Origin: Escherichia phage BF17 | Strand: one strand, 5' to 3' | Sequence record: MW822008.1 | Length of the DNA: 64,000 nucleotides | Shown here: positions 1,523 to 34,808 of the stretch, piece by piece | Layout of the letters: each line of letters opens with the position of its first letter | Position numbering within the stretch: the first letter of the stretch is position 1 | Position numbers and translations under genes: made by a program | Notes under the pieces: generated by a model | The model's database searches: none | Told to the model about the DNA's origin: nothing | The model's input: the letters and a program-made list of their open reading frames with translations, nothing else

Positions 1523-2138
1523 TATGACCAGAATTAAAATGTATGATTTGATGCAGTACAGTAAAATTGCCATTCCAGTGCTTAATAAAGTGCTGGATGC
1601 ATTCATTGCCAAATACCCTGAGAATTCAGTGTTATGTATTCCATTTAGCGTTCCAGATAAAGATGATATATTCCAAGTGAATGTCAGTACACGTGGTATT
1701 ACATTACAGCAGAAATACATGGATACGGAATATTATGGAATAAAGTTGGATTCAGTACAGGGTTCAAAATCAGCCTATGATTTTTTTGTTCCTAATAATA
1801 TAGAGTCATGGGAAACAAACATTTCAAAGAAAGATGAAAATGATGTTCCTATTAGTGGTGTGTTCAACAATAAAGTTTTTTATTATTACGAAACCGACAA
1901 ATTCCCTGAAGAGTTATATTACAATTCAGAAATGAATGAAGATGTAGATGCATTCATGTTTCAATTATCTTTAGTACATGATATCATTGATGTTCAAGAG
2001 TTAAGAGCAGAAATCAATTTAGCTAAAGAGTTATCGGACATGCTGCCACCGTTTAGTATGCTTTTTTGTGAAGGTGGTTATTTTTCAAAAGAAGTGTTTG
2101 AACATTTCGTAGATGTTGTAAAAGGGTTGGATATATAG
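1515..2138 (+). CDS. hypothetical protein, FQ-motif paralog family
   Basis: Track ORF; motif AFMFQLSLVHD. Confidence 0.6.
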   Translation: MNDMTRIKMYDLMQYSKIAIPVLNKVLDAFIAKYPENSVLCIPFSVPDKDDIFQVNVSTRGITLQQKYMDTEYYGIKLDSVQGSKSAYDFFVPNNIESWETNISKKDENDVPISGVFNNKVFYYYETDKFPEELYYNSEMNEDVDAFMFQLSLVHDIIDVQELRAEINLAKELSDMLPPFSMLFCEGGYFSKEVFEHFVDVVKGLDI

Positions 2139-2139
2139 T

Positions 2140-2334
2140 ATGCTTACAGTTGATGTTAAACAAAAATACCGTAAGTTTGATTGGTTCACCGATAGTTTCC
2201 AGCTTGAATTATTACATATGAATATCAGTGAAACATTATGTGCAGAAACACAAGATGAATTTGATGATAGAGTGATGAACATAGTAATGCTTTCTTGCTT
2301 TAAACATTTTGGTTATTTTTTCGGACAGAATTGA
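2140..2334 (+). CDS. hypothetical small protein
   Basis: 64 aa ORF abutting neighbours. Confidence 0.4.
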   Translation: MLTVDVKQKYRKFDWFTDSFQLELLHMNISETLCAETQDEFDDRVMNIVMLSCFKHFGYFFGQN

Positions 2335-2342
2335 GGTAAAAA

Positions 2343-2858
2343 ATGCATCAACACAAGCATCATTCATATGATTTTGCAATTAACATTATGAAGTTCATTC
2401 GAGCGTTGGAGGATGGGAAGCTTAGTCATAAGTACAGGAAAGAGGGTAACAATTGGTTCAGAAATGATTCCGAGTTCAGTTGTCATAAAATCGTGTATAG
2501 TAATCAGTACAGTGCCAATTACCTACAAGATGTAGTGATGTGTTTTGAATACGTGTTGCAGTTCAGGGGTTCAATCCAAGATGAGTTGATGGAGAACATG
2601 TACATCCGATACCTTCCAATGCTCAAAGATGAAAATGTATTATTAAATTCAATATACCAACGAGTTCGTGAAATTGAGTGCAGGGATATATTAGATACAG
2701 AAGAATCGTATTTCCAGCAATCCCTGATTTATTCACCTGATTTATTACAGGTACATAATTTGTTTAATACATTACGTCAGAACATCAGTACAGACATATT
2801 TTTGTCATTATCGGATTATGATACATTTGTCAAAGATTTAGAGGAAATAGGATTATGA
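2343..2858 (+). CDS. hypothetical protein, FQ-motif paralog family
   Basis: Motif ESYFQQSLIY. Confidence 0.6.
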   Translation: MHQHKHHSYDFAINIMKFIRALEDGKLSHKYRKEGNNWFRNDSEFSCHKIVYSNQYSANYLQDVVMCFEYVLQFRGSIQDELMENMYIRYLPMLKDENVLLNSIYQRVREIECRDILDTEESYFQQSLIYSPDLLQVHNLFNTLRQNISTDIFLSLSDYDTFVKDLEEIGL

Positions 2859-3196
2859 GTAGATTTTCGGTTTGTGTGGTAAACATAAAAAGTGATGGTA
2901 GTTTAATTGAATTAGATGTATATGATGATGATAATGCATATGGTATTAAAGTACAGGACAATGATGTGCAGTTCAGTTCAAGAACAAATTTTGAAAATCC
3001 AGTCCAAGTTCCTAATTTCATAGAAGATGAAGCAGCACGTTTCCAATACGAAACGGCATATGACAATGTACATATGCATATTATTATGCAACAAAGTTTA
3101 GTTCAATTAGTTCCTTTGTTCAGACAAAATATATATGTACATGAATTGTCGATCAATGACGTTCGCAGTTCCGTATTGTTCGATACAAATATGTAA
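2855..3196 (+). CDS. hypothetical protein, FQ-motif paralog family (divergent)
   Basis: ATGA overlap; motif ARFQYETAYD. Confidence 0.5.
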   Translation: MSRFSVCVVNIKSDGSLIELDVYDDDNAYGIKVQDNDVQFSSRTNFENPVQVPNFIEDEAARFQYETAYDNVHMHIIMQQSLVQLVPLFRQNIYVHELSINDVRSSVLFDTNM

Positions 3197-3206
3197 GGAA
3201 AGTACA

Positions 3207-3749
3207 ATGAGTTTATTAGATACATTAGAAAAAGACAGAAGTGCAATTAAGCGTTTAAAAGAGCAAGTACAAAAGATTGTATACAACGTTGATAAGTTTG
3301 AGGTTCCCGGAAGATTTGGTGATATTTCCCATACGGAGATCAAATCCCTTAAGTCAGATTTGTTGATTAAAAATAAAAATGGGTTGATTTTAGTTTTGAG
3401 TTCAGATATGATGGGGGCAACACATAGTTATAATGCAGTATCGGTGCGTTCAGAGTGTGAAGGTATATATCTATCACAGGGTTTCAATAGCGAGACACAG
3501 GTTTGTTTTTGTGATGCAGTACATGACCCTATGAAGTTCACGAGAAGTGAAGCCCAAGCGTTATTAGAGCTATCAGACGAGAGTTTGTTTCAGTACAGTA
3601 CAATGTATGACAATGATAAGCTTCGTTGTATGTACGCTGTAAAGCATTATACACAGGAGTTCTCTGGATTTGCATACCTTTTAGTTAGAACCAATACCAG
3701 ATATATTGATATGTTAGAAGATTACATCGATAAAGTTGTTAATGTATGA
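3207..3749 (+). CDS. hypothetical protein, FQ-motif paralog family
   Basis: Track ORF 3135..3749; in-frame ATG 3207 after AAGGA; motif ESLFQYSTMYD. Confidence 0.55.
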   Translation: MSLLDTLEKDRSAIKRLKEQVQKIVYNVDKFEVPGRFGDISHTEIKSLKSDLLIKNKNGLILVLSSDMMGATHSYNAVSVRSECEGIYLSQGFNSETQVCFCDAVHDPMKFTRSEAQALLELSDESLFQYSTMYDNDKLRCMYAVKHYTQEFSGFAYLLVRTNTRYIDMLEDYIDKVVNV

Positions 3750-3770
3750 TTTTGTGATGGGATGATGCTA

Positions 3771-3941
3771 ATGAAAGAGTTATTTGAAGATCAGTTCAAT
3801 ACATATGTGGATAATATTCTTTATTCCAGTCGTGCCAGTCAACGAGGAAATCGTGCTTACAATATTGATTACCTATTGGTGGTGCTGAGTTCACAGTACA
3901 CCAATGCGGTACAAAGGGTTTATTATGAAAAGTGCAAGTAA
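3771..3941 (+). CDS. hypothetical small protein (56 aa)
   Basis: Untracked small ORF; overlaps next ORF in another frame. Confidence 0.25.
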   Translation: MKELFEDQFNTYVDNILYSSRASQRGNRAYNIDYLLVVLSSQYTNAVQRVYYEKCK

Positions 3942-4134
3942 TAGTGATATTGCAAAGGAGAAGTTTAAGTGCAGTTTAGATTACGGTTTAAATGATTTTC
4001 TTACATGCACAATGTACAGGGATGATGATTATGAACAATCCGTAATTTCGTTGCACAGATATTTAGAAATAATTTACGCAAGATATCTTAGAAGGTTAGA
4101 GGGAATAGGGGATTGGTATAATGATTACGTTTGA
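3925..4134 (+). CDS. hypothetical protein
   Basis: Track ORF 3904..4134; internal ATG 3925. Confidence 0.35.
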   Translation: MKSASNSDIAKEKFKCSLDYGLNDFLTCTMYRDDDYEQSVISLHRYLEIIYARYLRRLEGIGDWYNDYV

Positions 4135-4357
4135 AGAACCAGAAACAATGAGTCCATATACGATGAAAGGTTTTGAATTCATGATGGATTCGATTTTGAA
4201 GAGTTCGTGTTTAGTACACAATCCTGAGCGTGCAACAGTGAGGGAATATCAGGACAATGCATTACAGCGTGTAATGAATATGTACAGGAATACGAGTCGC
4301 AAGCTTTGTGCGTTGAAAAGGATTGAAGAAATCAAGGTTTCTAGGCTGAATAAATAG
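4121..4357 (+). CDS. hypothetical protein
   Basis: 78 aa track ORF. Confidence 0.45.
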   Translation: MITFEEPETMSPYTMKGFEFMMDSILKSSCLVHNPERATVREYQDNALQRVMNMYRNTSRKLCALKRIEEIKVSRLNK

Positions 4358-4556
4358 AGACGTTTCATTTTGACAGGCCGCTGGAGGGGGTCAAAAAAAT
4401 TTCCGCTGAAAAACATGCTAAGGTATATGTTTAATATAAAGTTTTATATTGTGTTTTTTCAGAGTACAGTTCATGTTTCTTGAAACAAAAAATACCCCGC
4501 CGCCGAACGTTCTCCTTATATTGGAGTTTACCTTATTAATTATAGTAGAGATTAAG

Positions 4557-4934
4557 ATGGAAATAAAATATAATGAATTTTGTGCAAGGACATGGATGTA
4601 CACTGGTGAGTTAGTTACGCACTCTAACTTATACAAGGGTGATTTAAACTACGCTAGGGACAAGATTTTAAAGTACTGGAATGCTGACTTTTATTTGATG
4701 GATTTTAGTACTGGGTTTAGGGGTAAAGCAACCGAGATGTTGGACTATACAGTACTTGATGATTCTGCACTGTTTCAGGCGGCATTAGTATTTGATAAGA
4801 AGTACATCTGTACATTAGAAGAGATGATTGAATTACAGCGTAGAATTAAATGTATTCACAGGGAATGTATAGATATCTGGTGCAGTACTGGTGAAGATGA
4901 TTTTTGTAATCATTTCAATCTAGGGGAAGTGTGA
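4557..4934 (+). CDS. hypothetical protein, FQ-motif paralog family
   Basis: Track ORF 4449..4934; in-frame ATG 4557 after GC-rich leader; motif ALFQAALVFDKKY. Confidence 0.5.
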   Translation: MEIKYNEFCARTWMYTGELVTHSNLYKGDLNYARDKILKYWNADFYLMDFSTGFRGKATEMLDYTVLDDSALFQAALVFDKKYICTLEEMIELQRRIKCIHRECIDIWCSTGEDDFCNHFNLGEV

Positions 4935-5095
4935 TGGAATTTGATTTTTTAATATCAGTACATTCTTTTAAGCACAGTTATCAGTACTTTTGTAATTTAA
5001 ACAAAGGTGATTTGATTATGGATACAGATACAGAGGCTGTATACAGTTCTAATATTCTGTACAAATTCAGTACTAATCTGAAGGAGATTTTATGA
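4934..5095 (+). CDS. truncated paralog (N-terminal duplicate of the 5463 gene), 53 aa
   Basis: Untracked ORF; first ~27 aa near-identical to start of 5463..5819; stop overlaps next ATG. Confidence 0.4.
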   Translation: MEFDFLISVHSFKHSYQYFCNLNKGDLIMDTDTEAVYSSNILYKFSTNLKEIL

Positions 5096-5463
5096 AAAAA
5101 GAAATTAGAATTCAATTCGGTATGAGGAAAAGAGAGGTCATCTGTACACTGAATCATGCGGTCGTGGAAAGCCTTGGTGGTGCATTACAAAAATTCTCCC
5201 ATTTTGTTCTTGTACTATATGAAAATGGGTCTTTTAAAATCTTCACATATGATGATTCAAAAAATTACCGTAATGATTTTGTAAATCTGACAGTACTGTC
5301 AGAAGAGGAATTCTTTCAGGAAAGTACTGTCTGGAATTTACCAGGAGCACCAATTGAATACGTCCGTGCTACACAGGCAGAAATGATCAAAGTAATGCAG
5401 AACTATCCAGAAGATTATATGACTAAGTTTCCTGAATCTATTTATGTAGAGGTTGAGTACTGA
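5092..5463 (+). CDS. hypothetical protein, FQ-motif paralog family
   Basis: Motif EEFFQESTVWN. Confidence 0.6.
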   Translation: MKKEIRIQFGMRKREVICTLNHAVVESLGGALQKFSHFVLVLYENGSFKIFTYDDSKNYRNDFVNLTVLSEEEFFQESTVWNLPGAPIEYVRATQAEMIKVMQNYPEDYMTKFPESIYVEVEY

Positions 5464-5819
5464 TGGAATTTGATTTTTTAATATCAGTACATACTTTCAA
5501 GCACAGTTATCAGTACTTTTGTAATTTAAACAAAGGTGATTTAATGCACAGTGCAAATGAGTATATTCATTACACTCAGGGTAAATTTACATTCATTGAT
5601 TACAGTTCATTACAGTATCCACACCAAGATATGCCGGACTATACATTAATGGATACCGCAGAACTATTCCAAGAATCATTAGTATTTGATAAGAAGTACT
5701 TGTGTACATTTGAAGAAGTTATTGCAATACAAAATGAAATGAAAGAGTATGCTGCTTTGCATAAACCCAATGCAAGTATTAATCAAGAATACAAATTCAA
5801 TTTAGGAATTCAAGAATGA
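5463..5819 (+). CDS. hypothetical protein, FQ-motif paralog family
   Basis: Motif ELFQESLVFDKKY. Confidence 0.65.
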   Translation: MEFDFLISVHTFKHSYQYFCNLNKGDLMHSANEYIHYTQGKFTFIDYSSLQYPHQDMPDYTLMDTAELFQESLVFDKKYLCTFEEVIAIQNEMKEYAALHKPNASINQEYKFNLGIQE

Positions 5820-6175
5820 CATATGATTATTCTATGTACTATTATAAGTTACCTAAAGGATGGGACTTGTGCTGTAATCTTATTAAGGGCGACTCGGAAC
5901 ATGAGTTGAGTTTATATATGCATTACAAAGATTCTTGTTTTAAATTTATTCATGTATCACATGACGACTATGACTATGAATCTGAGAGTCTTATAGATTA
6001 TACAGTACTGGACGATGGTGAACTATTTCAGGCTGCATTAGTGTTTGATAAGAATAAGTACTCCTGTACATTTGAAGAAATGGTTTCTTTGCAAAATGAA
6101 ATGAAGAGATTTGAAAAAGAAAACGTATTTAATCCATCCCCATCAAGAACGAATAATTATTATTTCAATATATGA
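5816..6175 (+). CDS. hypothetical protein, FQ-motif paralog family
   Basis: Motif ELFQAALVFDKNKY. Confidence 0.65.
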   Translation: MTYDYSMYYYKLPKGWDLCCNLIKGDSEHELSLYMHYKDSCFKFIHVSHDDYDYESESLIDYTVLDDGELFQAALVFDKNKYSCTFEEMVSLQNEMKRFEKENVFNPSPSRTNNYYFNI

Positions 6176-6184
6176 GATTATAAA

Positions 6185-6676
6185 ATGACATTACAGAGTT
6201 CATTGGAAAAAGCAAAGAAGATTCATGAGTACATGAATATGGCAAAAGAAGGTTCAGTTTACGGTGTTTTCAAAGACACAAGTACTCAATATTATGTACC
6301 GGATAACCTCCTTTATAATGACTGCTCAGATACAGAAACGTGCGTACTGGATACAGAAACGTGCATACTAGATACCGACCCTAATGATTATGAATGCTTC
6401 ATTAATATGCATAATGAGTACATGGTCTATATTAATGATACAGATACCATCAACAGTACTGACAGCGATTCCAATGACATTATAATTCCGAGTGAAGTAC
6501 TGGAAGGTCCGTGGGATAGTGAAGAGTATTACTTCCAACAAAGTACTGTATATGATAATGAAGTACTTGATGTTATTATAATTATGTGGTACTTTAAAAG
6601 TATTGGTTCTGGGAACTTCTATTTCGATTACAAATACGTAAAGAAAACTGTAGATAACGGTATTAACAGGGGTTGA
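6185..6676 (+). CDS. hypothetical protein, FQ-motif paralog family
   Basis: Motif EEYYFQQSTVYDNEVLDVIIIMWYF. Confidence 0.7.
   Translation: MTLQSSLEKAKKIHEYMNMAKEGSVYGVFKDTSTQYYVPDNLLYNDCSDTETCVLDTETCILDTDPNDYECFINMHNEYMVYINDTDTINSTDSDSNDIIIPSEVLEGPWDSEEYYFQQSTVYDNEVLDVIIIMWYFKSIGSGNFYFDYKYVKKTVDNGINRG
6329..6379 (+). repeat. 21-bp tandem repeat inside CDS
   Basis: gatacagaaacgtgcgtactg x2.4, encodes DTETCVLDTETCILDTD. Confidence 0.6.
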
Positions 6677-26691: not shown

Positions 26692-26698
26692 TAAACCA

Positions 26699-26731
26699 AA
26701 GGACGGGATTTGTTATCTCGTCCTTTTTTTG
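26699..26731 (+). terminator. intrinsic terminator
   Basis: aggacg...cgtcct hairpin followed by TTTTTTT. Confidence 0.55.
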
Positions 26732-26742
26732 TCTGGAGATGT

Positions 26743-27597
26743 ATGAAACTTTATCTAATCGTTGACTACAATAAGGATTATGCTGGTAACTTCACCGAAG
26801 ATTCGGATGGATATTGCACATCGACTAATGTCAATGTACGTAGCAGTAGTGCTCATGAACATGAATCTTGTAAAAATCTAAAAGATTTTATCGCATACCG
26901 AGCATTTGAAAAGAACTTCTGCCGCAGTAGATATTCGAAGTTTGAGTACCCGTTAATTGATGTTCCTGATGATTTAATGTTCCAGTTAATGCTAACTGGA
27001 GTTCAAGATTATGATTACATAGCATATAATCATATTACTAAGAAAATTTATATTGGTACATCATCACATGACACTTCTATGTATGCATCATGCCCAGATG
27101 ATCGAATGAATGATAGAAAATCATACTATAGTGGATCAGTTGGTTTAAATGATTCATTAAATGAAAATTTATTCTTTGAGTATGTTTATGATTACCATCA
27201 TGAGAAAAAAGAACGTGAAGATTACTGTATAGCAATTGATAGTACTAATGGGTATGAAGACGTGAAAGAAGCACTTATGCCGTACATTATTGAAAAGTAC
27301 TACAAAGATTTTCAGTACTGTAGTAATTTTCTAATCAGAAATTCTATTATAATCGGTCGCCAATCTAGTGCATACTCTCAGTACTATAATGATTCACCAG
27401 TAGCATCGGCAAATGAAATGTGTGATATTTTACAAATTCCACGTGAAGATATGGCATTCATTTTTACATCTTTTATTGAAGATGATGAGTTGTATATTAA
27501 AAATAAACACCGTTTCATGCCAAGCAAGATTGAGGTTATTCGAAGTTTTAGTGTTGATATACTAACAAATTTCACAGAAAAAACCGAATATAACTGA
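26743..27597 (+). CDS. hypothetical protein, FQ-motif paralog family
   Basis: Track ORF 26710..27597; ATG 26743 after GGAG and downstream of terminator; motif DDLMFQLMLTGV. Confidence 0.55.
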   Translation: MKLYLIVDYNKDYAGNFTEDSDGYCTSTNVNVRSSSAHEHESCKNLKDFIAYRAFEKNFCRSRYSKFEYPLIDVPDDLMFQLMLTGVQDYDYIAYNHITKKIYIGTSSHDTSMYASCPDDRMNDRKSYYSGSVGLNDSLNENLFFEYVYDYHHEKKEREDYCIAIDSTNGYEDVKEALMPYIIEKYYKDFQYCSNFLIRNSIIIGRQSSAYSQYYNDSPVASANEMCDILQIPREDMAFIFTSFIEDDELYIKNKHRFMPSKIEVIRSFSVDILTNFTEKTEYN

Positions 27598-28838: not shown

Positions 28839-29360
28839 ATGTCGAAGAAGGATGCTTCGAAAAAACATTCAGTACATTTTAGTACTGGAAAAGATAACTG
28901 GACAACTCCAAAGGATTTCTTTGAAGATTTGGATGAACTCTGGGAATTTACACTAGATGCAGCATGTGTCAAAGAAACTGCATTGTGTGATAATTTTTTC
29001 ACTCCAGAAGATGATTCACTGTCACAGGATTGGGGAAATAATATAGTTTGGTTGAATCCACCATATAGTGACTTGAAAACTTGGTTATCTAAAGCAGTAG
29101 ATGCATATAATAACGGGGCAACTGTAGTTATTCTTGTACCCTCAAGAACCGATACAATTGCTTTTCAGGATTATGCTGCTAAAATATGTGATTGTATTTG
29201 TTTTATTAAGGGAAGATTGAGATTTGGTATACCAGAAGAACCCGATAAGAAAACAGATTCAGCACCATTTCCTTCGTGTCTGATAGTACTGGATAAGTAC
29301 TTAACCACTGCTAAAATCAATTATCTTAAATCTCTTGGGTTGGTGATGAAGAATTTATGA
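28839..29360 (+). CDS. DNA N6-adenine methyltransferase (phage Dam family)
   Basis: NPPY catalytic motif (WLNPPYSD); size and layout typical of phage N6A MTases. Confidence 0.8.
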   Translation: MSKKDASKKHSVHFSTGKDNWTTPKDFFEDLDELWEFTLDAACVKETALCDNFFTPEDDSLSQDWGNNIVWLNPPYSDLKTWLSKAVDAYNNGATVVILVPSRTDTIAFQDYAAKICDCICFIKGRLRFGIPEEPDKKTDSAPFPSCLIVLDKYLTTAKINYLKSLGLVMKNL

Positions 29361-29890
29361 AAGAAACATGCGTATTAACTTTTGGACGTGTTAATCCCGT
29401 ACATCGTGGACATGGTTTAGTTTTTGAAAAGGCCAAAACATTACAAGAACAGTACAATGCTGATTTAAAAATATATCTAAGCACCAGTACTGACAATATA
29501 AAAAACCCACTCCCACCTGAACTAAAAATGTATTATACAGAGGGATTCTATCCTTCAGTGCAAGAGAACATCTACACAGAAGACAATCTATTTGATATAA
29601 TGAGAGAACTGGATGGAAAGTACTTAGATGTTCTTTTCATATGTGGTTCTGACCGTATTGATTCTTTTCAAAAAACTCTTGACATGTACAATGGTAAGTT
29701 GTATAATTTTTGTAGTATAAAAGCAATTCAAGCAGGTATTGACCGTAATGTAAGTCAATATAGCTCAACACAAATGCGTAACTTCGCAAAAAATGAAGAT
29801 TTTGATAGTTTTCGTGAGTTTTTACCTGGAAATGACGAGGACTTAAAAATACAATTATTTGAAGACGTTATAAAATACATGAGGAAATAA
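29357..29890 (+). CDS. nucleotidyltransferase, NMN/NaMN adenylyltransferase-like
   Basis: GxFxPxHxGH motif (FGRVNPVHRGHG) and SSTxxR motif; ATGA-coupled to the MTase gene. Confidence 0.65.
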   Translation: MKETCVLTFGRVNPVHRGHGLVFEKAKTLQEQYNADLKIYLSTSTDNIKNPLPPELKMYYTEGFYPSVQENIYTEDNLFDIMRELDGKYLDVLFICGSDRIDSFQKTLDMYNGKLYNFCSIKAIQAGIDRNVSQYSSTQMRNFAKNEDFDSFREFLPGNDEDLKIQLFEDVIKYMRK

Positions 29891-29892
29891 TT

Positions 29893-30186
29893 ATGTCAGT
29901 ACTGTTCAAAACCAATCCAGTACTTTGGGATCAAAATGAGCAATCAGGATTTCGTTCCATCCATGTTGAATACAAAGGTAATACTGTAGTTGCAATTATT
30001 GCTAACAAAACTCTAGGAAACTGGACTGCACAGGTTGTTCCTATGGGATATTCTTACACATCTGATGAGGTTCAATTCCTGGCTGAACTATATCGTCAAG
30101 TGCCGTTTATCATTAATGTACTAGAAGGTAATGATACATTATCACATGCAGATGTGATTAATTTTCTTGGAAACTTGCATGTGTGA
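29893..30186 (+). CDS. hypothetical protein
   Basis: 97 aa track ORF. Confidence 0.5.
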   Translation: MSVLFKTNPVLWDQNEQSGFRSIHVEYKGNTVVAIIANKTLGNWTAQVVPMGYSYTSDEVQFLAELYRQVPFIINVLEGNDTLSHADVINFLGNLHV

Positions 30187-30466
30187 TGAAATAAATCTTA
30201 CAGGATATTTTTTACAAGAATCAATGATTAAATTTAGTGATAAATTTTCAGTACTGGATGGTATCGAAATGTGGCATGTCAAACCACTGTTCCACACTTT
30301 CAGTAAAGAGCACAAAATGTTATTGACTGAAGCCAGTAAATCAAATAACATATGTGAAATCAAAATTGGTGTAAATGTCTATAAAGGGATGGTTATCTTT
30401 TTTGACAATAACAGCAACTACTTTTATATTGTTAAGGAGCATTACGTTGACAAATACAAATACTAA
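30179..30466 (+). CDS. hypothetical protein
   Basis: Track ORF 30167..30466; ATG 30179. Confidence 0.45.
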   Translation: MCDEINLTGYFLQESMIKFSDKFSVLDGIEMWHVKPLFHTFSKEHKMLLTEASKSNNICEIKIGVNVYKGMVIFFDNNSNYFYIVKEHYVDKYKY

Positions 30467-31067
30467 TACATATTTCCGTTATCTTCGATTAGGTCTTTCC
30501 CTACGTCCGATCCGTGGAAAGTGCGATTCACTCGCTGACCTTGACTATGCATATGCATTACATCATGAAGGTGTACAGTATGTATTGGGTGATTATGGTG
30601 AATTTGAAGAAACAAATGACAGTACTGGAATTAATGCTGGTGTAGAAAATCTTAACAACATTGCTAACAGTTCTCGCCATGACATTGTGTTACAGATTCA
30701 AAACTTTATTGAGCAACACACAGGCAAACGTGTTTGGTGCTATGTCGGTACTGATGCACAAATGTCAATTTCATTCGGTAACGATGAAGGATATGTTGCA
30801 CAGCTTATTATGGATTTTGAATCTGAAGAGAAGTTTTTAGAATTCAAAGAAAAGATTATTCAGTCACTTGTTGATATGGGTATCCCCGAAGATAAAATGC
30901 CAGAAGTTCAAAACATTGATGAATTTGTTTTGATTCCATCTGATGAGAAATATGATGCAATGTTTACTGCTCTTAATATTCCAGGAGTTATTGTGGAGTA
31001 CTTTGATGATGGTGATGATAGTATCTATATCGATCTAGATGACGATGACGATGACGACGATGAATAA
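30447..31067 (+). CDS. acidic protein with poly-Asp C-terminal tail
   Basis: Track ORF 30375..31067; TTG 30447 seven nt after AAGGAG; ends DLDDDDDDDDE. Confidence 0.5.
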   Translation: MTNTNTNTYFRYLRLGLSLRPIRGKCDSLADLDYAYALHHEGVQYVLGDYGEFEETNDSTGINAGVENLNNIANSSRHDIVLQIQNFIEQHTGKRVWCYVGTDAQMSISFGNDEGYVAQLIMDFESEEKFLEFKEKIIQSLVDMGIPEDKMPEVQNIDEFVLIPSDEKYDAMFTALNIPGVIVEYFDDGDDSIYIDLDDDDDDDDE

Positions 31068-31074
31068 TGTACAT

Positions 31075-31102
31075 AGCCCGACATAAGTTCGGGCTATTTT
31101 TG
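31075..31102 (+). terminator. intrinsic terminator
   Basis: agcccg-acataagt-tcgggct hairpin followed by ATTTTTG. Confidence 0.6.
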
Positions 31103-31113
31103 TAAGGGGATAT

Positions 31114-31389
31114 ATGAATTATAAAGTTCTACAATATACATACAGTGTTTTGTTTGATTTACATCACAATGGAAGATATCTCAATACAATACGAGAAAAC
31201 ACATTCACTCATACTATCTGGATTAATCACTTAATAATGATACGTGAATATTTTGTTAATAGTGAGATAATCATTCGTGGTAAAAAACAGAAGATAGAAC
31301 AAGTTAATAGTTTTGGTGGTAAATTAGTACTATCATTTATAGATAGTAATACTAATGAAAGATATAGTATAGATTTGGTGGACATATGA
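31114..31389 (+). CDS. hypothetical small protein, family B
   Basis: 91 aa; N-terminal YxYxxLFDL pattern shared with following ORFs. Confidence 0.55.
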   Translation: MNYKVLQYTYSVLFDLHHNGRYLNTIRENTFTHTIWINHLIMIREYFVNSEIIIRGKKQKIEQVNSFGGKLVLSFIDSNTNERYSIDLVDI

Positions 31390-31652
31390 ATTATAAAGAT
31401 TTCCTACTAACATACAAGATTATTCGAGATTTAGCACACGACAATGATAGCCCTAGTCTAGAAGACACATGCACTGAAATGATTCATACGATTCGTGGTA
31501 AGATTAAAAAAAAATTCAGTACTGTTATTATTGGTGATGACCATGCAGAATTTTCTGATATAATCATTAGACGTGATGGTAAAGTTGAGGTTCAGTACTA
31601 CACTGATTTTGGATTTACCAGTATTCCGTTGGAGATATTCCCTTGGGATTAA
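31386..31652 (+). CDS. hypothetical small protein, family B
   Basis: ATGA overlap; paralog of neighbours. Confidence 0.55.
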   Translation: MNYKDFLLTYKIIRDLAHDNDSPSLEDTCTEMIHTIRGKIKKKFSTVIIGDDHAEFSDIIIRRDGKVEVQYYTDFGFTSIPLEIFPWD

Positions 31653-31954
31653 ATTTAAATGATATACAATTCACTTATAAGATCCTATATGATTTGTATG
31701 ATGTATACCTTGTTAGTAACAACATAGGTTCACATAACCGATCCAAAGAACAACCATTTATTGATTTATATATTGAGTACTTAGATTCAGTAGGTGAATA
31801 TATAAAAAAGAATTACAGTACTTTTATCGATGGAAATGATAAATTCGATTTCTATGGTGTACAATCATATAATGGTATAATCCATGTTCAATTTCAGGAA
31901 ATAACCGATAGGGGATTTATCGAGATTAAAGTTGTGAAGTTGGTGAATTTATAA
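31643..31954 (+). CDS. hypothetical small protein, family B
   Basis: No in-frame ATG; TTG start 8 nt after GGAG; LNDIQFTYKILYDLY. Confidence 0.5.
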   Translation: MGLNLNDIQFTYKILYDLYDVYLVSNNIGSHNRSKEQPFIDLYIEYLDSVGEYIKKNYSTFIDGNDKFDFYGVQSYNGIIHVQFQEITDRGFIEIKVVKLVNL

Positions 31955-31964
31955 GAGGTTACAT

Positions 31965-32276
31965 ATGTTATTAAATGATATACAATTCACATACAAATTT
32001 TTGTATATCCAATACGCTACGGTTGATGCTGGAGAATATCTCTACAGTGAAATCTATCGTTCGGTATGGATAAAGTTTTTGGATGAATTACATGAATATT
32101 ACCATGATTTGTGCATAGTTCGTGATAATAAAATATACAAATTCCGCGATATTGTTAGTCATAGCGGTAAGCTACGATTGGAATTAAGTACTGATAGTGA
32201 TGTTGATTGGATTGGTGTAAATTTACTGGAGTTGGAGAATGAAAAACAACTTAAAGGAAATACAAGTATTTTATAA
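31965..32276 (+). CDS. hypothetical small protein, family B
   Basis: LLNDIQFTYKFLY near-identical N-terminus to previous. Confidence 0.55.
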   Translation: MLLNDIQFTYKFLYIQYATVDAGEYLYSEIYRSVWIKFLDELHEYYHDLCIVRDNKIYKFRDIVSHSGKLRLELSTDSDVDWIGVNLLELENEKQLKGNTSIL

Positions 32277-32523
32277 ATTCTTATACTTGTCATATGTAAA
32301 AGATGAGTACTATGAAAGTGTGTATTATTTTTTATGGCAACATTACCGTACTATAGTAAGAGATTTATATATAGGAAAATCTATCATATCCAATGGTGAA
32401 AAATGTATATGTACGGATGTAGTTAGTTTTAATGGTTCTTTAACACTGTGTTTCAGATGCGATAATAATAGTGGGTCATTTTCATTAAACGTATATCAGT
32501 TAGAAGGAATAAATTTTGAATAA
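32239..32523 (+). CDS. hypothetical small protein, family B
   Basis: KEIQVFYKFLYLSY; GGAG RBS. Confidence 0.55.
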   Translation: MKNNLKEIQVFYKFLYLSYVKDEYYESVYYFLWQHYRTIVRDLYIGKSIISNGEKCICTDVVSFNGSLTLCFRCDNNSGSFSLNVYQLEGINFE

Positions 32524-34776: not shown

Positions 34777-34783
34777 ATTCTTA

Positions 34784-34808
34784 GGCCAGCGTTTGCTGGT
34801 CTTTTTTC
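34784..34808 (+). terminator. intrinsic terminator
   Basis: gccagc-gttt-gctggt hairpin followed by CTTTTTT. Confidence 0.55.

What the first reader, a model, noticed from the sequence alone, without database searches (positions are those of the whole stretch)
30447..31067. Acidic protein with a run of nine Asp/Glu at the C-terminus, TTG-initiated
The ORF ends ...IDLDDDDDDDDE and is acidic throughout. The only RBS-supported start is TTG at 30447, 7 nt after AAGGAG; there is no in-frame ATG after the upstream gene ends. Poly-acidic tails occur in DNA-mimic and nucleic-acid-binding-protein antagonists, but that is speculation here. An intrinsic terminator follows.
Basis: partly seen in the sequence, partly recalled or inferred. 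Interest (0 to 1): 0.4.

Follow-up and report, generated by a model that had tools for sequence, protein, structure and literature searches.

The report
Acidic-tailed conserved jumbo-phage protein, function unknown
This is a real, TTG-started, strongly conserved gene of RaK2/121Q-type giant coliphages. It encodes a folded domain of unknown function followed by a floppy poly-aspartate tail; public records already list it as a hypothetical protein, and nothing here shows that it mimics DNA.

Summary
ORF 30447..31067 (206 aa, pI 4.05, net charge -32) ends in DDDDDDDDE, has AAGGAG 7 nt before a TTG start, and is followed by an intrinsic terminator. The window is an Asteriusvirus jumbo coliphage, and the ORF is the orthologue of 121Q gp421 / RaK2 ORF451 (PHROG 15575, unknown function).

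Comparison settles the TTG start. All six Asteriusvirus genomes read keep TTG plus the ribosome-binding site. Other genera have ATG or GTG at the aligned codon. The in-frame ATG at 30375 is not conserved.

The gene is single-copy in 69 RaK2-like genomes, is syntenic, and is under strong purifying selection (dN/dS about 0.05-0.1). It was not found in the phAPEC6 virion proteome.

AlphaFold gives a confident alpha/beta domain (pLDDT 82) with no match in PDB, and a disordered tail. The tail sits on a (GATGAC)n repeat and varies from 5 to 9 D/E among close relatives. It is absent in phage CBB and in all distant, near-neutral homologues.

Those distant homologues lie in huge-phage contigs, several of them next to NAD/ADP-ribose, HD-domain or tRNA-related genes. 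This is a lead, not proof. The function stays unknown and the DNA-mimic idea is untested. Interest is modest.

The parts
30434..30439 (+). Shine-Dalgarno sequence AAGGAG, 7 nt before the start codon
   Evidence: Sequence. An SD-like purine run sits at the same distance in all 11 relatives read.
30447..30449 (+). TTG start codon
   Evidence: TTG is conserved in window, 121Q, UE-S1, Turkey3, Turkey5 and A4. Turkey5 has only 4 open codons upstream and no other start. The aligned codon is ATG in RaK2, Hallingskeid, BF, CBB and fHe-Yen9-04, and GTG in Munch. The same start is annotated in 121Q, G17, Sharanji, UE-S1, Turkey3/5 and A4.
30447..31067 (+). Coding sequence (206 aa plus TAA stop at 31065-31067); orthologue of 121Q gp421 / G17_00504 / RaK2 ORF451; PHROG 15575
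   Evidence: dN/dS is 0.048 against UE-S1 (dS 0.31) and 0.05-0.10 against Turkey3/5 and A4.
30375..30446 (+). In-frame upstream extension starting at ATG 30375; rejected as coding for this protein
   Evidence: It lies inside the upstream gene. The ATG is absent in Turkey3, Turkey5 and A4, and a stop codon lies 0-6 codons upstream of the start in other genera. Some records and gene callers nevertheless use it (E9.1; P0001).
30450..30470 (+). (ACAAAT)x3.5 hexanucleotide repeat encoding the N-terminal TNTNTNT
   Evidence: TRF. Relatives read TNTNSNT or NTNSNT.
30471..30521 (+). Conserved basic N-terminal segment YFRYLRLGLSLRPIRGK (residues 9-25, net +5)
   Evidence: Nearly invariant in 20 relatives. 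Net charge is +4/+5 across the RaK2-like clade and about 0 in distant homologues.
30459..31010 (+). Globular alpha/beta domain (residues about 5-188) with no detectable known fold
31011..31064 (+). Disordered acidic tail (residues 189-206: GDDSIYIDLDDDDDDDDE); the terminal D8E run is 31038-31064
   Evidence: pLDDT is below 50 for residues 189-206. Residues 186-206 carry net -14. Length and sequence vary among relatives.
31038..31057 (+). (GATGAC)x3.3 perfect tandem repeat underlying the poly-Asp run; source of length polymorphism
   Evidence: TRF. The window has 6 nt more than 121Q and G17. D/E run lengths: 9 (window), 8 (A4), 7 (121Q), 6 (Turkey3), 5 (UE-S1).
31073..31103 (+). Intrinsic terminator: hairpin 31073-31097 plus T-run
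   Evidence: Annotated as a terminator in G17.
30167..30466 (+). Upstream 99-aa gene (PHROG 38105) in another frame, overlapping the start of this gene by 20 nt; same operon as the Dam methylase (28839-29360) and the HIGH-motif nucleotidyltransferase (29357-29890)

Best explanation
Shown:
- The ORF is a genuine protein-coding gene translated from TTG 30447.
- It is the orthologue of 121Q gp421 and a single-copy, syntenic gene of the RaK2-like jumbo phages.
- It was not detected in the one virion proteome of the genus that I could check.
- It lies in a long unidirectional block with early-type, nucleic-acid-metabolism genes.
- It encodes a folded alpha/beta domain of about 185 aa from an uncharacterised huge-phage family (PHROG 15575), followed by an intrinsically disordered poly-Asp tail.

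Inferred:
- The conserved domain carries the family's function. This is most likely binding of a ligand or partner rather than catalysis, because only Y45, H78, F110, G111 and F173 are nearly invariant across the whole family.
- That function probably belongs to the nucleotide / NAD-ADP-ribose / tRNA-maintenance gene neighbourhoods in which family members recur.
- The extreme acidity and the tail are add-ons specific to the RaK2-like lineage. The tail most likely works as a flexible polyanionic arm that engages a basic surface. That surface could be the protein's own conserved basic N-terminal segment (autoinhibition or solubility) or a basic, nucleic-acid-binding partner.
- Exact tail length matters little, so it drifts by slippage in the (GATGAC)n repeat.
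For: Gene and start.

Purifying selection: dN/dS 0.05-0.10.

Core gene: 69 records from 9 host genera, one copy each. Synteny Dam - nucleotidyltransferase - small gene(s) - this gene in seven genomes read; in Hallingskeid two extra genes intervene after the cytidyltransferase.

Non-virion: phAPEC6 gp390c is absent from the 62-protein virion MS list. The RaK2 paper does not mention gp451.

Early-type block containing Dam, RNA ligase, polynucleotide kinase, phosphatase and DNA ligase.

Fold and disorder.

The tail is a lineage-specific add-on:
- Distant homologues have pI 5-9 and no tail.
- All 37 aligned members hit PHROG 15575.
- CBB lacks the tail and the Hallingskeid clade has a short one.

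Slippage.

The basic N-terminus and the acidic tail appear together in the RaK2-like clade (rho = -0.64).

Neighbourhood theme in distant members:
- Prs-like + NAPRTase and NADAR.
- NADAR again.
- NAD kinase, and HD + CCA-adding enzyme.
- HAD_SAK_2 + CinA.
- HD protein next to the gene in BF, CBB, fHe-Yen9-04, Munch and Hallingskeid.
- Class I aminoacyl-tRNA synthetase, GatB_Yqey and metallophosphoesterase.
Against: - No biochemical or genetic data exist for any member.
- The neighbourhood theme may reflect only shared residence in the 'auxiliary islands' of huge phages. Seven of the distant lineages examined had no recognisable neighbour, and in the window itself no NAD gene is adjacent.
- The N-terminus/tail charge correlation is confounded by phylogeny. 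CBB, the Hallingskeid clade, P0028 and P0029 break it.
- AF2 places the tail nowhere (pLDDT < 50), so neither an intramolecular nor an intermolecular contact is shown.
- A nearly invariant His could still be catalytic.
Confidence: 0.45

Rival explanations
1. DNA or nucleic-acid mimic. The acidified surface and the poly-Asp tail imitate the phosphate backbone and sequester a host DNA-binding protein early in infection. Candidates would be a restriction or BREX-type enzyme, a nucleoid protein, or RNA polymerase. The model is Ocr, ArdA or Arn.
For: - pI 4.05 and net charge -32; 24 D/E positions are conserved among relatives of at least 45% identity.
- Not detected in the virion, and sits in an early-type block two genes after a Dam methylase, itself an anti-restriction device.
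- The acidification is a derived trait of the enterobacterial RaK2-like clade, as expected for a new host-directed role.
Against: - No Pfam hit at all; from my own knowledge, not checked here, Pfam-A carries Ocr and ArdA models. No PDB sequence or fold match either.
- About 40% of the net charge sits in a disordered tail, not on a rigid DNA-shaped surface.
- It behaves as a single-copy core gene with dN/dS 0.05-0.1 and fixed synteny, unlike typical patchy, fast-evolving anti-defence genes.
- The tail is absent in CBB.
- The conserved basic N-terminus is not expected in a mimic.
Confidence: 0.17
2. An enzyme or small-molecule binder (sponge) acting on NAD+/ADP-ribose-derived or other nucleotide metabolites, as an accessory to phage NAD+ reconstitution or nucleotide/tRNA repair. 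The acidic tail would be incidental to this role.
For: - Family members lie inside or beside NAD-related gene sets in four independent lineages: Prs-like + NAPRTase + NADAR, NADAR, NAD kinase, and CinA + HAD_SAK_2.
- They also lie beside HD, CCA-adding and metallophosphoesterase genes.
- Nearly invariant Y45, H78, F110 and F173 could line a ligand pocket.
- Published work shows that NARP1 operons often carry extra accessory genes (bioRxiv 10.64898/2026.01.28.702374).
Against: - Each NAD association rests on one or a few contigs, and no proper enrichment test was possible.
- In the window and other Asteriusvirus genomes the only nearby candidate is an unassigned HIGH-motif nucleotidyltransferase. 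In CBB, a phage of the wider RaK2-like group, the known NAD salvage genes lie about 40 genes away.
- No catalytic motif or known nucleotide-binding fold was detected.
Confidence: 0.2
3. The tail has no function of its own. It is a tolerated low-complexity expansion produced by replication slippage in a GAT/GAC repeat at the 3' end of an otherwise ordinary gene.
For: - A perfect (GATGAC)n repeat.
- Run length differs between genomes about 99% identical in DNA across this locus: 9 in the window against 7 in 121Q. UE-S1, at about 97% protein identity, has 5.
- The tail is lost in CBB and short in the Hallingskeid clade without loss of the gene.
Against: - Acidic C-termini persist, always in frame, across genera that share only 27-60% identity and use different codons and sequences. 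This covers Asteriusvirus, Alcyoneusvirus, the Munch group and Eneladusvirus.
- These tails have 10-14 D/E and usually no K/R in the last 20 residues. That points to selection for composition rather than drift.
Confidence: 0.15
4. A morphogenetic or scaffold-type acidic protein that is removed before the virion matures.
For: Scaffold and prohead-core proteins are often very acidic and absent from mature virions (general knowledge). This protein was not detected in the phAPEC6 virion.
Against: - It lies far from the structural modules, in an operon with Dam and a nucleotidyltransferase.
- It has a compact alpha/beta domain rather than the extended helical architecture of scaffolds.
- Distant homologues are neutral.
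Confidence: 0.03

Closest known systems
Escherichia phage 121Q gp421 (YP_009102008.1), G17_00504, Sharanji gp538, RaK2 ORF451 (YP_007007606.1), Serratia phage BF gp066; PHROG 15575 ('unknown function')
   Same: Orthologues. The core is 100% identical to 121Q over residues 9-186. The TTG start, operon position and terminator are the same. The match to PHROG 15575 is full length, E = 3.4e-93.
   Different: The window allele has two extra Asp, from one more GATGAC unit, compared with 121Q and G17. No member has a known function.
Acidic DNA-mimic anti-restriction proteins (T7 Ocr, ArdA, T4 Arn)
   Same: Very low pI and large net negative charge. Phage-encoded and not detected in the virion. Sits in an early-type region near a DNA methylase.
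   Different: No sequence or structural similarity. Much of the charge is in a disordered tail. It has a conserved basic N-terminus. It is a core gene under strong purifying selection. The homologous domain elsewhere is neutral.
Acidic C-terminal tails of single-stranded-DNA-binding proteins (E. coli SSB, T7 gp2.5, T4 gp32)
   Same: A disordered, Asp-rich C-terminal tail on a folded domain, with a few hydrophobic residues embedded (IYIDL, EWLDL, LFIEI). In those proteins the tail contacts basic partner surfaces or the protein's own binding site (established knowledge).
   Different: No hit to any family in Pfam-A (from my knowledge it includes SSB/OB-fold models) and no PDB match. The predicted fold is a mixed alpha/beta sandwich. 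The tail ends in D/E, not in the hydrophobic or aromatic tip that defines SSB-type tails.
Accessory genes of phage NAD+ reconstitution operons (NARP1 with the Adpp macro-domain phosphatase; RyDEP)
   Same: Distant family members lie between or next to Prs-like/NAPRTase, NADAR, NAD kinase and CinA genes. NARP1 operons are reported to carry extra genes.
   Different: No hit in Pfam-A (from my knowledge it includes Macro and RyR models). The association is seen only in distant homologues. It is not seen in the window, where NAD genes are not adjacent.

Membership tests
PHROG 15575 / 121Q gp421 orthologue group | Significant full-length profile match | tested here: met
   E = 3.4e-93, residues 1-200 against profile positions 1-193 of 193. 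All 37 aligned relatives match the same PHROG.
PHROG 15575 / 121Q gp421 orthologue group | Conserved genomic position (Dam - nucleotidyltransferase - small ORF(s) - this gene) | tested here: met
   Same order in G17, 121Q, RaK2, Munch, BF, CBB and fHe-Yen9-04. In Hallingskeid two extra genes intervene after the cytidyltransferase and the Dam gene lay outside the stretch read.
DNA-mimic proteins (Ocr / ArdA / Arn type) | Strong net negative charge, pI about 4 | tested here: met
   pI 4.05, net charge -32.
DNA-mimic proteins (Ocr / ArdA / Arn type) | Sequence or fold relationship to a known mimic | tested here: not met
DNA-mimic proteins (Ocr / ArdA / Arn type) | Rigid surface whose carboxylates reproduce the spacing of DNA phosphates | not testable with these tools
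Residues 186-206 carry 14 of the 32 net negative charges, and residues 189-206 are disordered.
DNA-mimic proteins (Ocr / ArdA / Arn type) | Binds and inhibits a DNA-binding protein | not testable with these tools
   Needs pull-down or inhibition assays. No literature on any member.
SSB-type proteins with acidic C-terminal tails | OB-fold DNA-binding domain | tested here: not met
SSB-type proteins with acidic C-terminal tails | Acidic tail ending in a conserved hydrophobic or aromatic tip | tested here: not met
   Nearly all acidic tails of the family end in D or E; isolated exceptions end in Y, I or Q (P0007, P0010, fHe-Yen9-04). Hydrophobic residues lie 9-12 positions before the end and are not conserved in BF or the Hallingskeid clade.
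Virion structural protein | Detected in purified particles by mass spectrometry | tested here: not met
   The phAPEC6 orthologue gp390c is not among the 62 virion proteins. gp451 is not mentioned in the RaK2 paper. This is literature evidence and negative only.
Rho-independent terminator (downstream element) | GC-rich hairpin immediately followed by a T-run | tested here: met
   9-bp stem with 5 GC pairs at 31073-31097, then TTTTTGT. MFE -13.8 kcal/mol, z = -2.4.
NARP1-type NAD+ reconstitution operon accessory gene | Encoded inside or adjacent to an Adps (Prs-like) + Namat (NAPRTase-like) pair | tested here: not met
   tblastn with the Prs-like, NAPRTase, NADAR, CinA and HAD_SAK_2 proteins finds nothing in the 64-kb window. 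The arrangement is seen for only one distant homologue, in a Novimethylophilus contig.

The most novel reading that the evidence does not exclude
The PHROG 15575 domain may be a new fold used by huge phages as an accessory to NAD+/ADP-ribose or nucleotide-signal counter-defence, for example as a ligand sponge or as a regulator of neighbouring enzymes. In the RaK2-like lineage it would then have been converted, by surface acidification plus a poly-Asp tail, into a polyanionic decoy that also blocks a host nucleic-acid-binding defence protein. That would make it a new family of anti-defence protein with a nucleic-acid-mimicking tail.
Probability: 0.12. Interest if true: 0.65.

Novelty: already known. 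Interest (0 to 1): 0.27.

Why it matters
As it stands, the result mainly cleans up annotation.
- It fixes the start codon of a gene that public records annotate in three different ways: TTG start (204 aa), ATG-extended (228 aa) and truncated (158 aa).
- It shows that the poly-Asp tail is a slippage-prone, lineage-specific appendage.

If the context lead holds, the family would be a widespread, structurally unassigned huge-phage protein tied to NAD/ADP-ribose or tRNA maintenance, an area of active work on phage counter-defence. If the decoy idea holds, it would add a new fold to the DNA-mimic repertoire. Neither is established here.

Tried and rejected
Led nowhere:
- Pfam, NCBIfam and PADLOC scans of the protein and of distant homologues gave nothing significant.
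- PDB sequence-profile searches with two alignments gave nothing.
- Model coordinates could not be read, so no electrostatic surface analysis was possible.
- Literature searches on Asteriusvirus, RaK2, fHe-Yen9-04 and on acidic-tail mimics found no functional, transcriptomic or toxicity data for this gene.

Considered and rejected:
- ATG 30375 as the start, because it is not conserved.
- Fusion with the upstream ORF, because it is in a different frame.
- The sigma-70-like site at 30402-30430 as a dedicated promoter. It would start transcription inside the SD. It is conserved only in close relatives, where it is coding sequence of the upstream gene. Such sites are no more frequent than in shuffles, 66 found against 56.7 +/- 6.8 expected.
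- A fusion link between this family and the operon's first gene through the shared 'YAGNF' N-terminal motif in P0060. The similarity is too weak (E = 0.023 over 30 residues).
- Intramolecular N-terminus/tail pairing as a demonstrated feature. The correlation is confounded by phylogeny and has exceptions.

Full report
**What the window is.** A 1.6-kb stretch around the finding matches Asteriusvirus jumbo coliphages at 99.0-99.4% (SP27, E9.1, PBECO4, 121Q, G17, phAPEC6 and others). The ORF at 30447..31067 corresponds to 121Q gp421 and G17_00504. Both are annotated as 'hypothetical protein' with exactly the same TTG start, and G17 also annotates the downstream terminator.

**Check of the observation.**
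- The sequence shows AAGGAG at 30434-30439, a 7-nt spacer, TTG at 30447 and TAA at 31065. The C-terminus reads ...SIYIDLDDDDDDDDE.
- The product has 206 aa, pI 4.05 and net charge -32. Residues 1-25 are basic (+5), and residues 186-206 carry -14.
- A D/E run of nine or more arises in only 14 of 200,000 shuffles of the same protein, and at the C-terminus in 1.
- The terminator hairpin at 31073-31097 plus T-run is found by the scan and folds at -13.8 kcal/mol, z = -2.4.

**The start codon.**
- All six Asteriusvirus genomes read (window, 121Q, UE-S1, Turkey3, Turkey5, A4) have TTG preceded by an SD at the same distance.
- In Turkey5 only four codons are open upstream and none is a start, so TTG is the only option there.
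- The ATG at 30375 is missing in Turkey3, Turkey5 and A4.
- In other genera the aligned codon is ATG (RaK2, Hallingskeid, BF, CBB, fHe-Yen9-04) or GTG (Munch). A stop lies 0-6 codons upstream, and the protein N-terminus is conserved (xNTNSNTYFRYLRLG...).
- Public annotation is inconsistent. phAPEC6 gp390c is truncated to 158 aa. E9.1 and some metagenomic calls use the upstream ATG.

**It is a real, constrained gene.**
- dN/dS is 0.048 against UE-S1 (dS 0.31) and 0.05-0.10 against Turkey3, Turkey5 and A4.
- tblastn finds exactly one copy in each of 69 phage records. All are RaK2-like jumbo phages, of Escherichia, Klebsiella, Salmonella, Erwinia, Yersinia, Serratia, Cronobacter and Pectobacterium, plus one Xanthomonas phage.
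- The order Dam methylase - HIGH-motif nucleotidyltransferase ('cytidyltransferase') - small ORF(s) - this gene is kept in seven genomes read from across these genera. In Hallingskeid two extra genes intervene after the cytidyltransferase.
- The surrounding 30 kb is a unidirectional block of small genes. It also holds an RNA ligase, a polynucleotide kinase, a phosphatase and a DNA ligase.
- The phAPEC6 orthologue is not among the 62 virion proteins detected by MS.

**Structure.**
- With a 20-sequence alignment, AlphaFold2 gives mean pLDDT 81.9 and pTM 0.77. The model is a mixed alpha/beta domain over residues about 5-188. Residues 189-206 have pLDDT below 50, so the tail is disordered.
- Foldseek against PDB gives nothing better than E = 0.86.
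- BFVD returns only the family's own members, from RaK2 and CBB.
- Pfam, NCBIfam, PADLOC and PDB profile searches are empty.
- The fold is therefore unassigned. AFDB could not be searched.

**The tail.**
- The terminal Asp run is encoded by a perfect (GATGAC)x3.3 repeat at 31038-31057.
- The terminal D/E run is 9 in the window, 8 in A4, 7 in 121Q and G17, 6 in Turkey3 and 5 in UE-S1. Turkey5 has DDDGDDDE. This is in-frame slippage polymorphism between near-identical genomes.
- Across genera the tail keeps its composition but not its sequence or length: 10-14 D/E and almost no K/R in the last 20 residues.
- The tail is short in the Hallingskeid clade and absent in CBB, which ends ...NIGDSK.
- The tail is therefore selected for charge in most lineages. 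It is not essential to the family's core function.

**The wider family.**
- An exhaustive profile search finds 43 clusters.
- The distant ones share the core motifs DGVQY, RHH..IK.VY and GDIWV..GGG.QLQ.FFGN..GY.AILYLD. Nearly invariant positions, in window numbering, are Y45, H78, F110, G111 and F173.
- All of them match PHROG 15575.
- They have pI 5-9, no acidic tail, and a much less basic N-terminal segment.
- The extreme acidity of both core and tail, and the basic N-terminal motif, are therefore derived features of the RaK2-like clade. The charge correlation (rho = -0.64) is confounded by phylogeny and has exceptions.

**Genomic context of distant members.**
- They occur on contigs of GC 19-68%. 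Several contigs are 100 kb to 1.9 Mb long.
- Recognisable neighbours:

| Locus or group | Neighbouring genes |
|---|---|
| Novimethylophilus WGS contig | Prs-like + NAPRTase (NARP1-like pair), a 146-aa gene, the family gene, then NADAR |
| L049 | NADAR 2.3 kb upstream; an AlkB-like oxygenase alongside |
| L040 | NAD kinase just downstream |
| An AT-rich clade | Trypsin_2-like protein, sometimes a tandem paralogue, the family gene, HAD_SAK_2, CinA |
| L053 | HD_4 and a CCA-adding enzyme directly upstream |
| L009, L052, L053 | Homologues of the BF gp067 HD protein nearby |
| BF, CBB, fHe-Yen9-04, Munch, Hallingskeid | The same HD protein directly downstream or one small gene away |
| L036, L022, L046/L047 | A class I aminoacyl-tRNA synthetase, a GatB_Yqey protein, metallophosphoesterases |
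| Seven lineages | No recognisable neighbour |

- The theme is NAD/ADP-ribose and nucleotide/tRNA processing.
- Recent work shows that NARP1 operons often carry accessory genes (bioRxiv 10.64898/2026.01.28.702374).
- None of the NAD genes has a homologue in the 64-kb window. In CBB the NAD salvage genes lie about 40 genes away.
- I treat this as a lead. By my own rough estimate, four of roughly 16-19 lineages with an explicit NAD gene within about 3 kb is more than a 5-10% background would give. The background is assumed, not measured. Shared residence in huge-phage 'auxiliary islands' could explain the pattern.

**Interpretation.**
- Shown: a real TTG-initiated gene; a conserved, syntenic gene of RaK2-like phages, not detected in the phAPEC6 virion; a folded domain of unassigned fold; a disordered, slippage-prone poly-Asp tail that is lineage-specific.
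- Inferred, confidence about 0.45: the domain is a binding or regulatory module working with nucleotide/NAD/tRNA-maintenance functions. The tail is a polyanionic arm that contacts a basic surface, either the protein's own N-terminus or a partner.
- The DNA-mimic idea stays possible (about 0.17). It is weakened by the core-gene behaviour, the strong purifying selection, the dispensable tail, the neutral homologues and the lack of similarity to any known mimic.
- An enzymatic or sponge role in NAD/ADPR metabolism (about 0.2) and a functionless tail (about 0.15) are the other live options.

**Verdict.** The gene is already catalogued as a hypothetical protein (PHROG 15575). Its function is unknown and the DNA-mimic speculation is untested. 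Interest is modest.

Noticed in passing
window 31114-32523 (probably continuing to about 35123): Directly after the terminator lies a tandem array of at least five paralogous genes of about 90-100 aa. Pairwise BLASTP E-values are 1e-3 to 7e-8, and they share N-terminal motifs such as L.DIQFTYK.LYDL. These are PHROG 32291/21004-type proteins of unknown function.
   Followed up: partly
window 29679-29707 (+): A perfect sigma-70 consensus promoter (TTGACA, 17 nt, TATAAT; 12 of 12) lies inside the nucleotidyltransferase gene. It could drive the downstream small genes and the acidic protein.
   Followed up: no
window 30402-30430 (+): A sigma-70-like site (TTGACA, 17 nt, TATATT; 11 of 12) ends 3 nt before the SD, so it would start transcription inside the SD. 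It is conserved only in close Asteriusvirus relatives and lies within the coding sequence of the upstream gene.
   Followed up: partly
window 30450-30470: The N-terminus (TNTNTNT) is also encoded by a hexanucleotide repeat, (ACAAAT)x3.5. Both ends of the gene therefore sit on short tandem repeats.
   Followed up: partly
public records: MK817115.1 (phAPEC6 gp390c), PP886230.1 (E9.1 CDS0177), AB897757.1 (K64-1), OR699183.1, MH494197.1: The orthologue is annotated with three different starts: TTG (204 aa), an upstream ATG (228 aa) and a truncated 158-aa form. It is unannotated in the K64-1 GenBank record. It appears split into pieces in SD-1_S14 and CMSTMSU, either by frameshift or by assembly error.
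   Followed up: partly
L023 (Novimethylophilus kurashikiensis La2-4, NZ_BDOQ01000010.1) 1833-6364: A bacterial WGS contig carries a NARP1-like pair (Prs-like 280 aa and NAPRTase-family 592 aa). These are followed by a 146-aa gene, a distant homologue of the acidic protein (158 aa, no tail), and a NADAR-domain gene.
   Followed up: partly
L008, L010-L012, L025, L026, L027, L032: In an AT-rich huge-phage clade the family gene is always preceded by a small Trypsin_2/Peptidase_S29-like gene (177-195 aa). In L026 and L027 the two genes overlap. In four of these loci (L008, L010-L012; L032 looks the same by tblastn) there is also a tandem paralogue of the family.
   Followed up: partly
window 26743-27594 and protein P0060: The first gene of the operon (284 aa, PHROG 15199) begins KLYLIVDYNKDYAGNF. 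This resembles the N-terminal extension of P0060, a 422-aa distant family member (KHYAVVIDTTQYAGNF). The pairwise E-value is 0.023, too weak to call a fusion link.
   Followed up: partly
L004, L005, L006, L018, L019 (Munch, BF, Hallingskeid, CBB, fHe-Yen9-04): In these genera an HD-domain gene (PHROG 15275) lies just downstream: it overlaps or abuts the acidic-protein gene in BF, Munch and Hallingskeid, follows after a short gap in fHe-Yen9-04, and sits one small gene away in CBB. In Asteriusvirus and RaK2 it is not there, and no homologue exists anywhere in the 64-kb window.
   Followed up: partly
window 26698-26726 and 34783-34802 (+): Two further strong terminator-like hairpins, with 12 and 8 pairs plus T-runs. 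The first lies just before the operon that ends with the acidic protein, so the transcription unit probably runs from about 26.7 to 31.1 kb.
   Followed up: no
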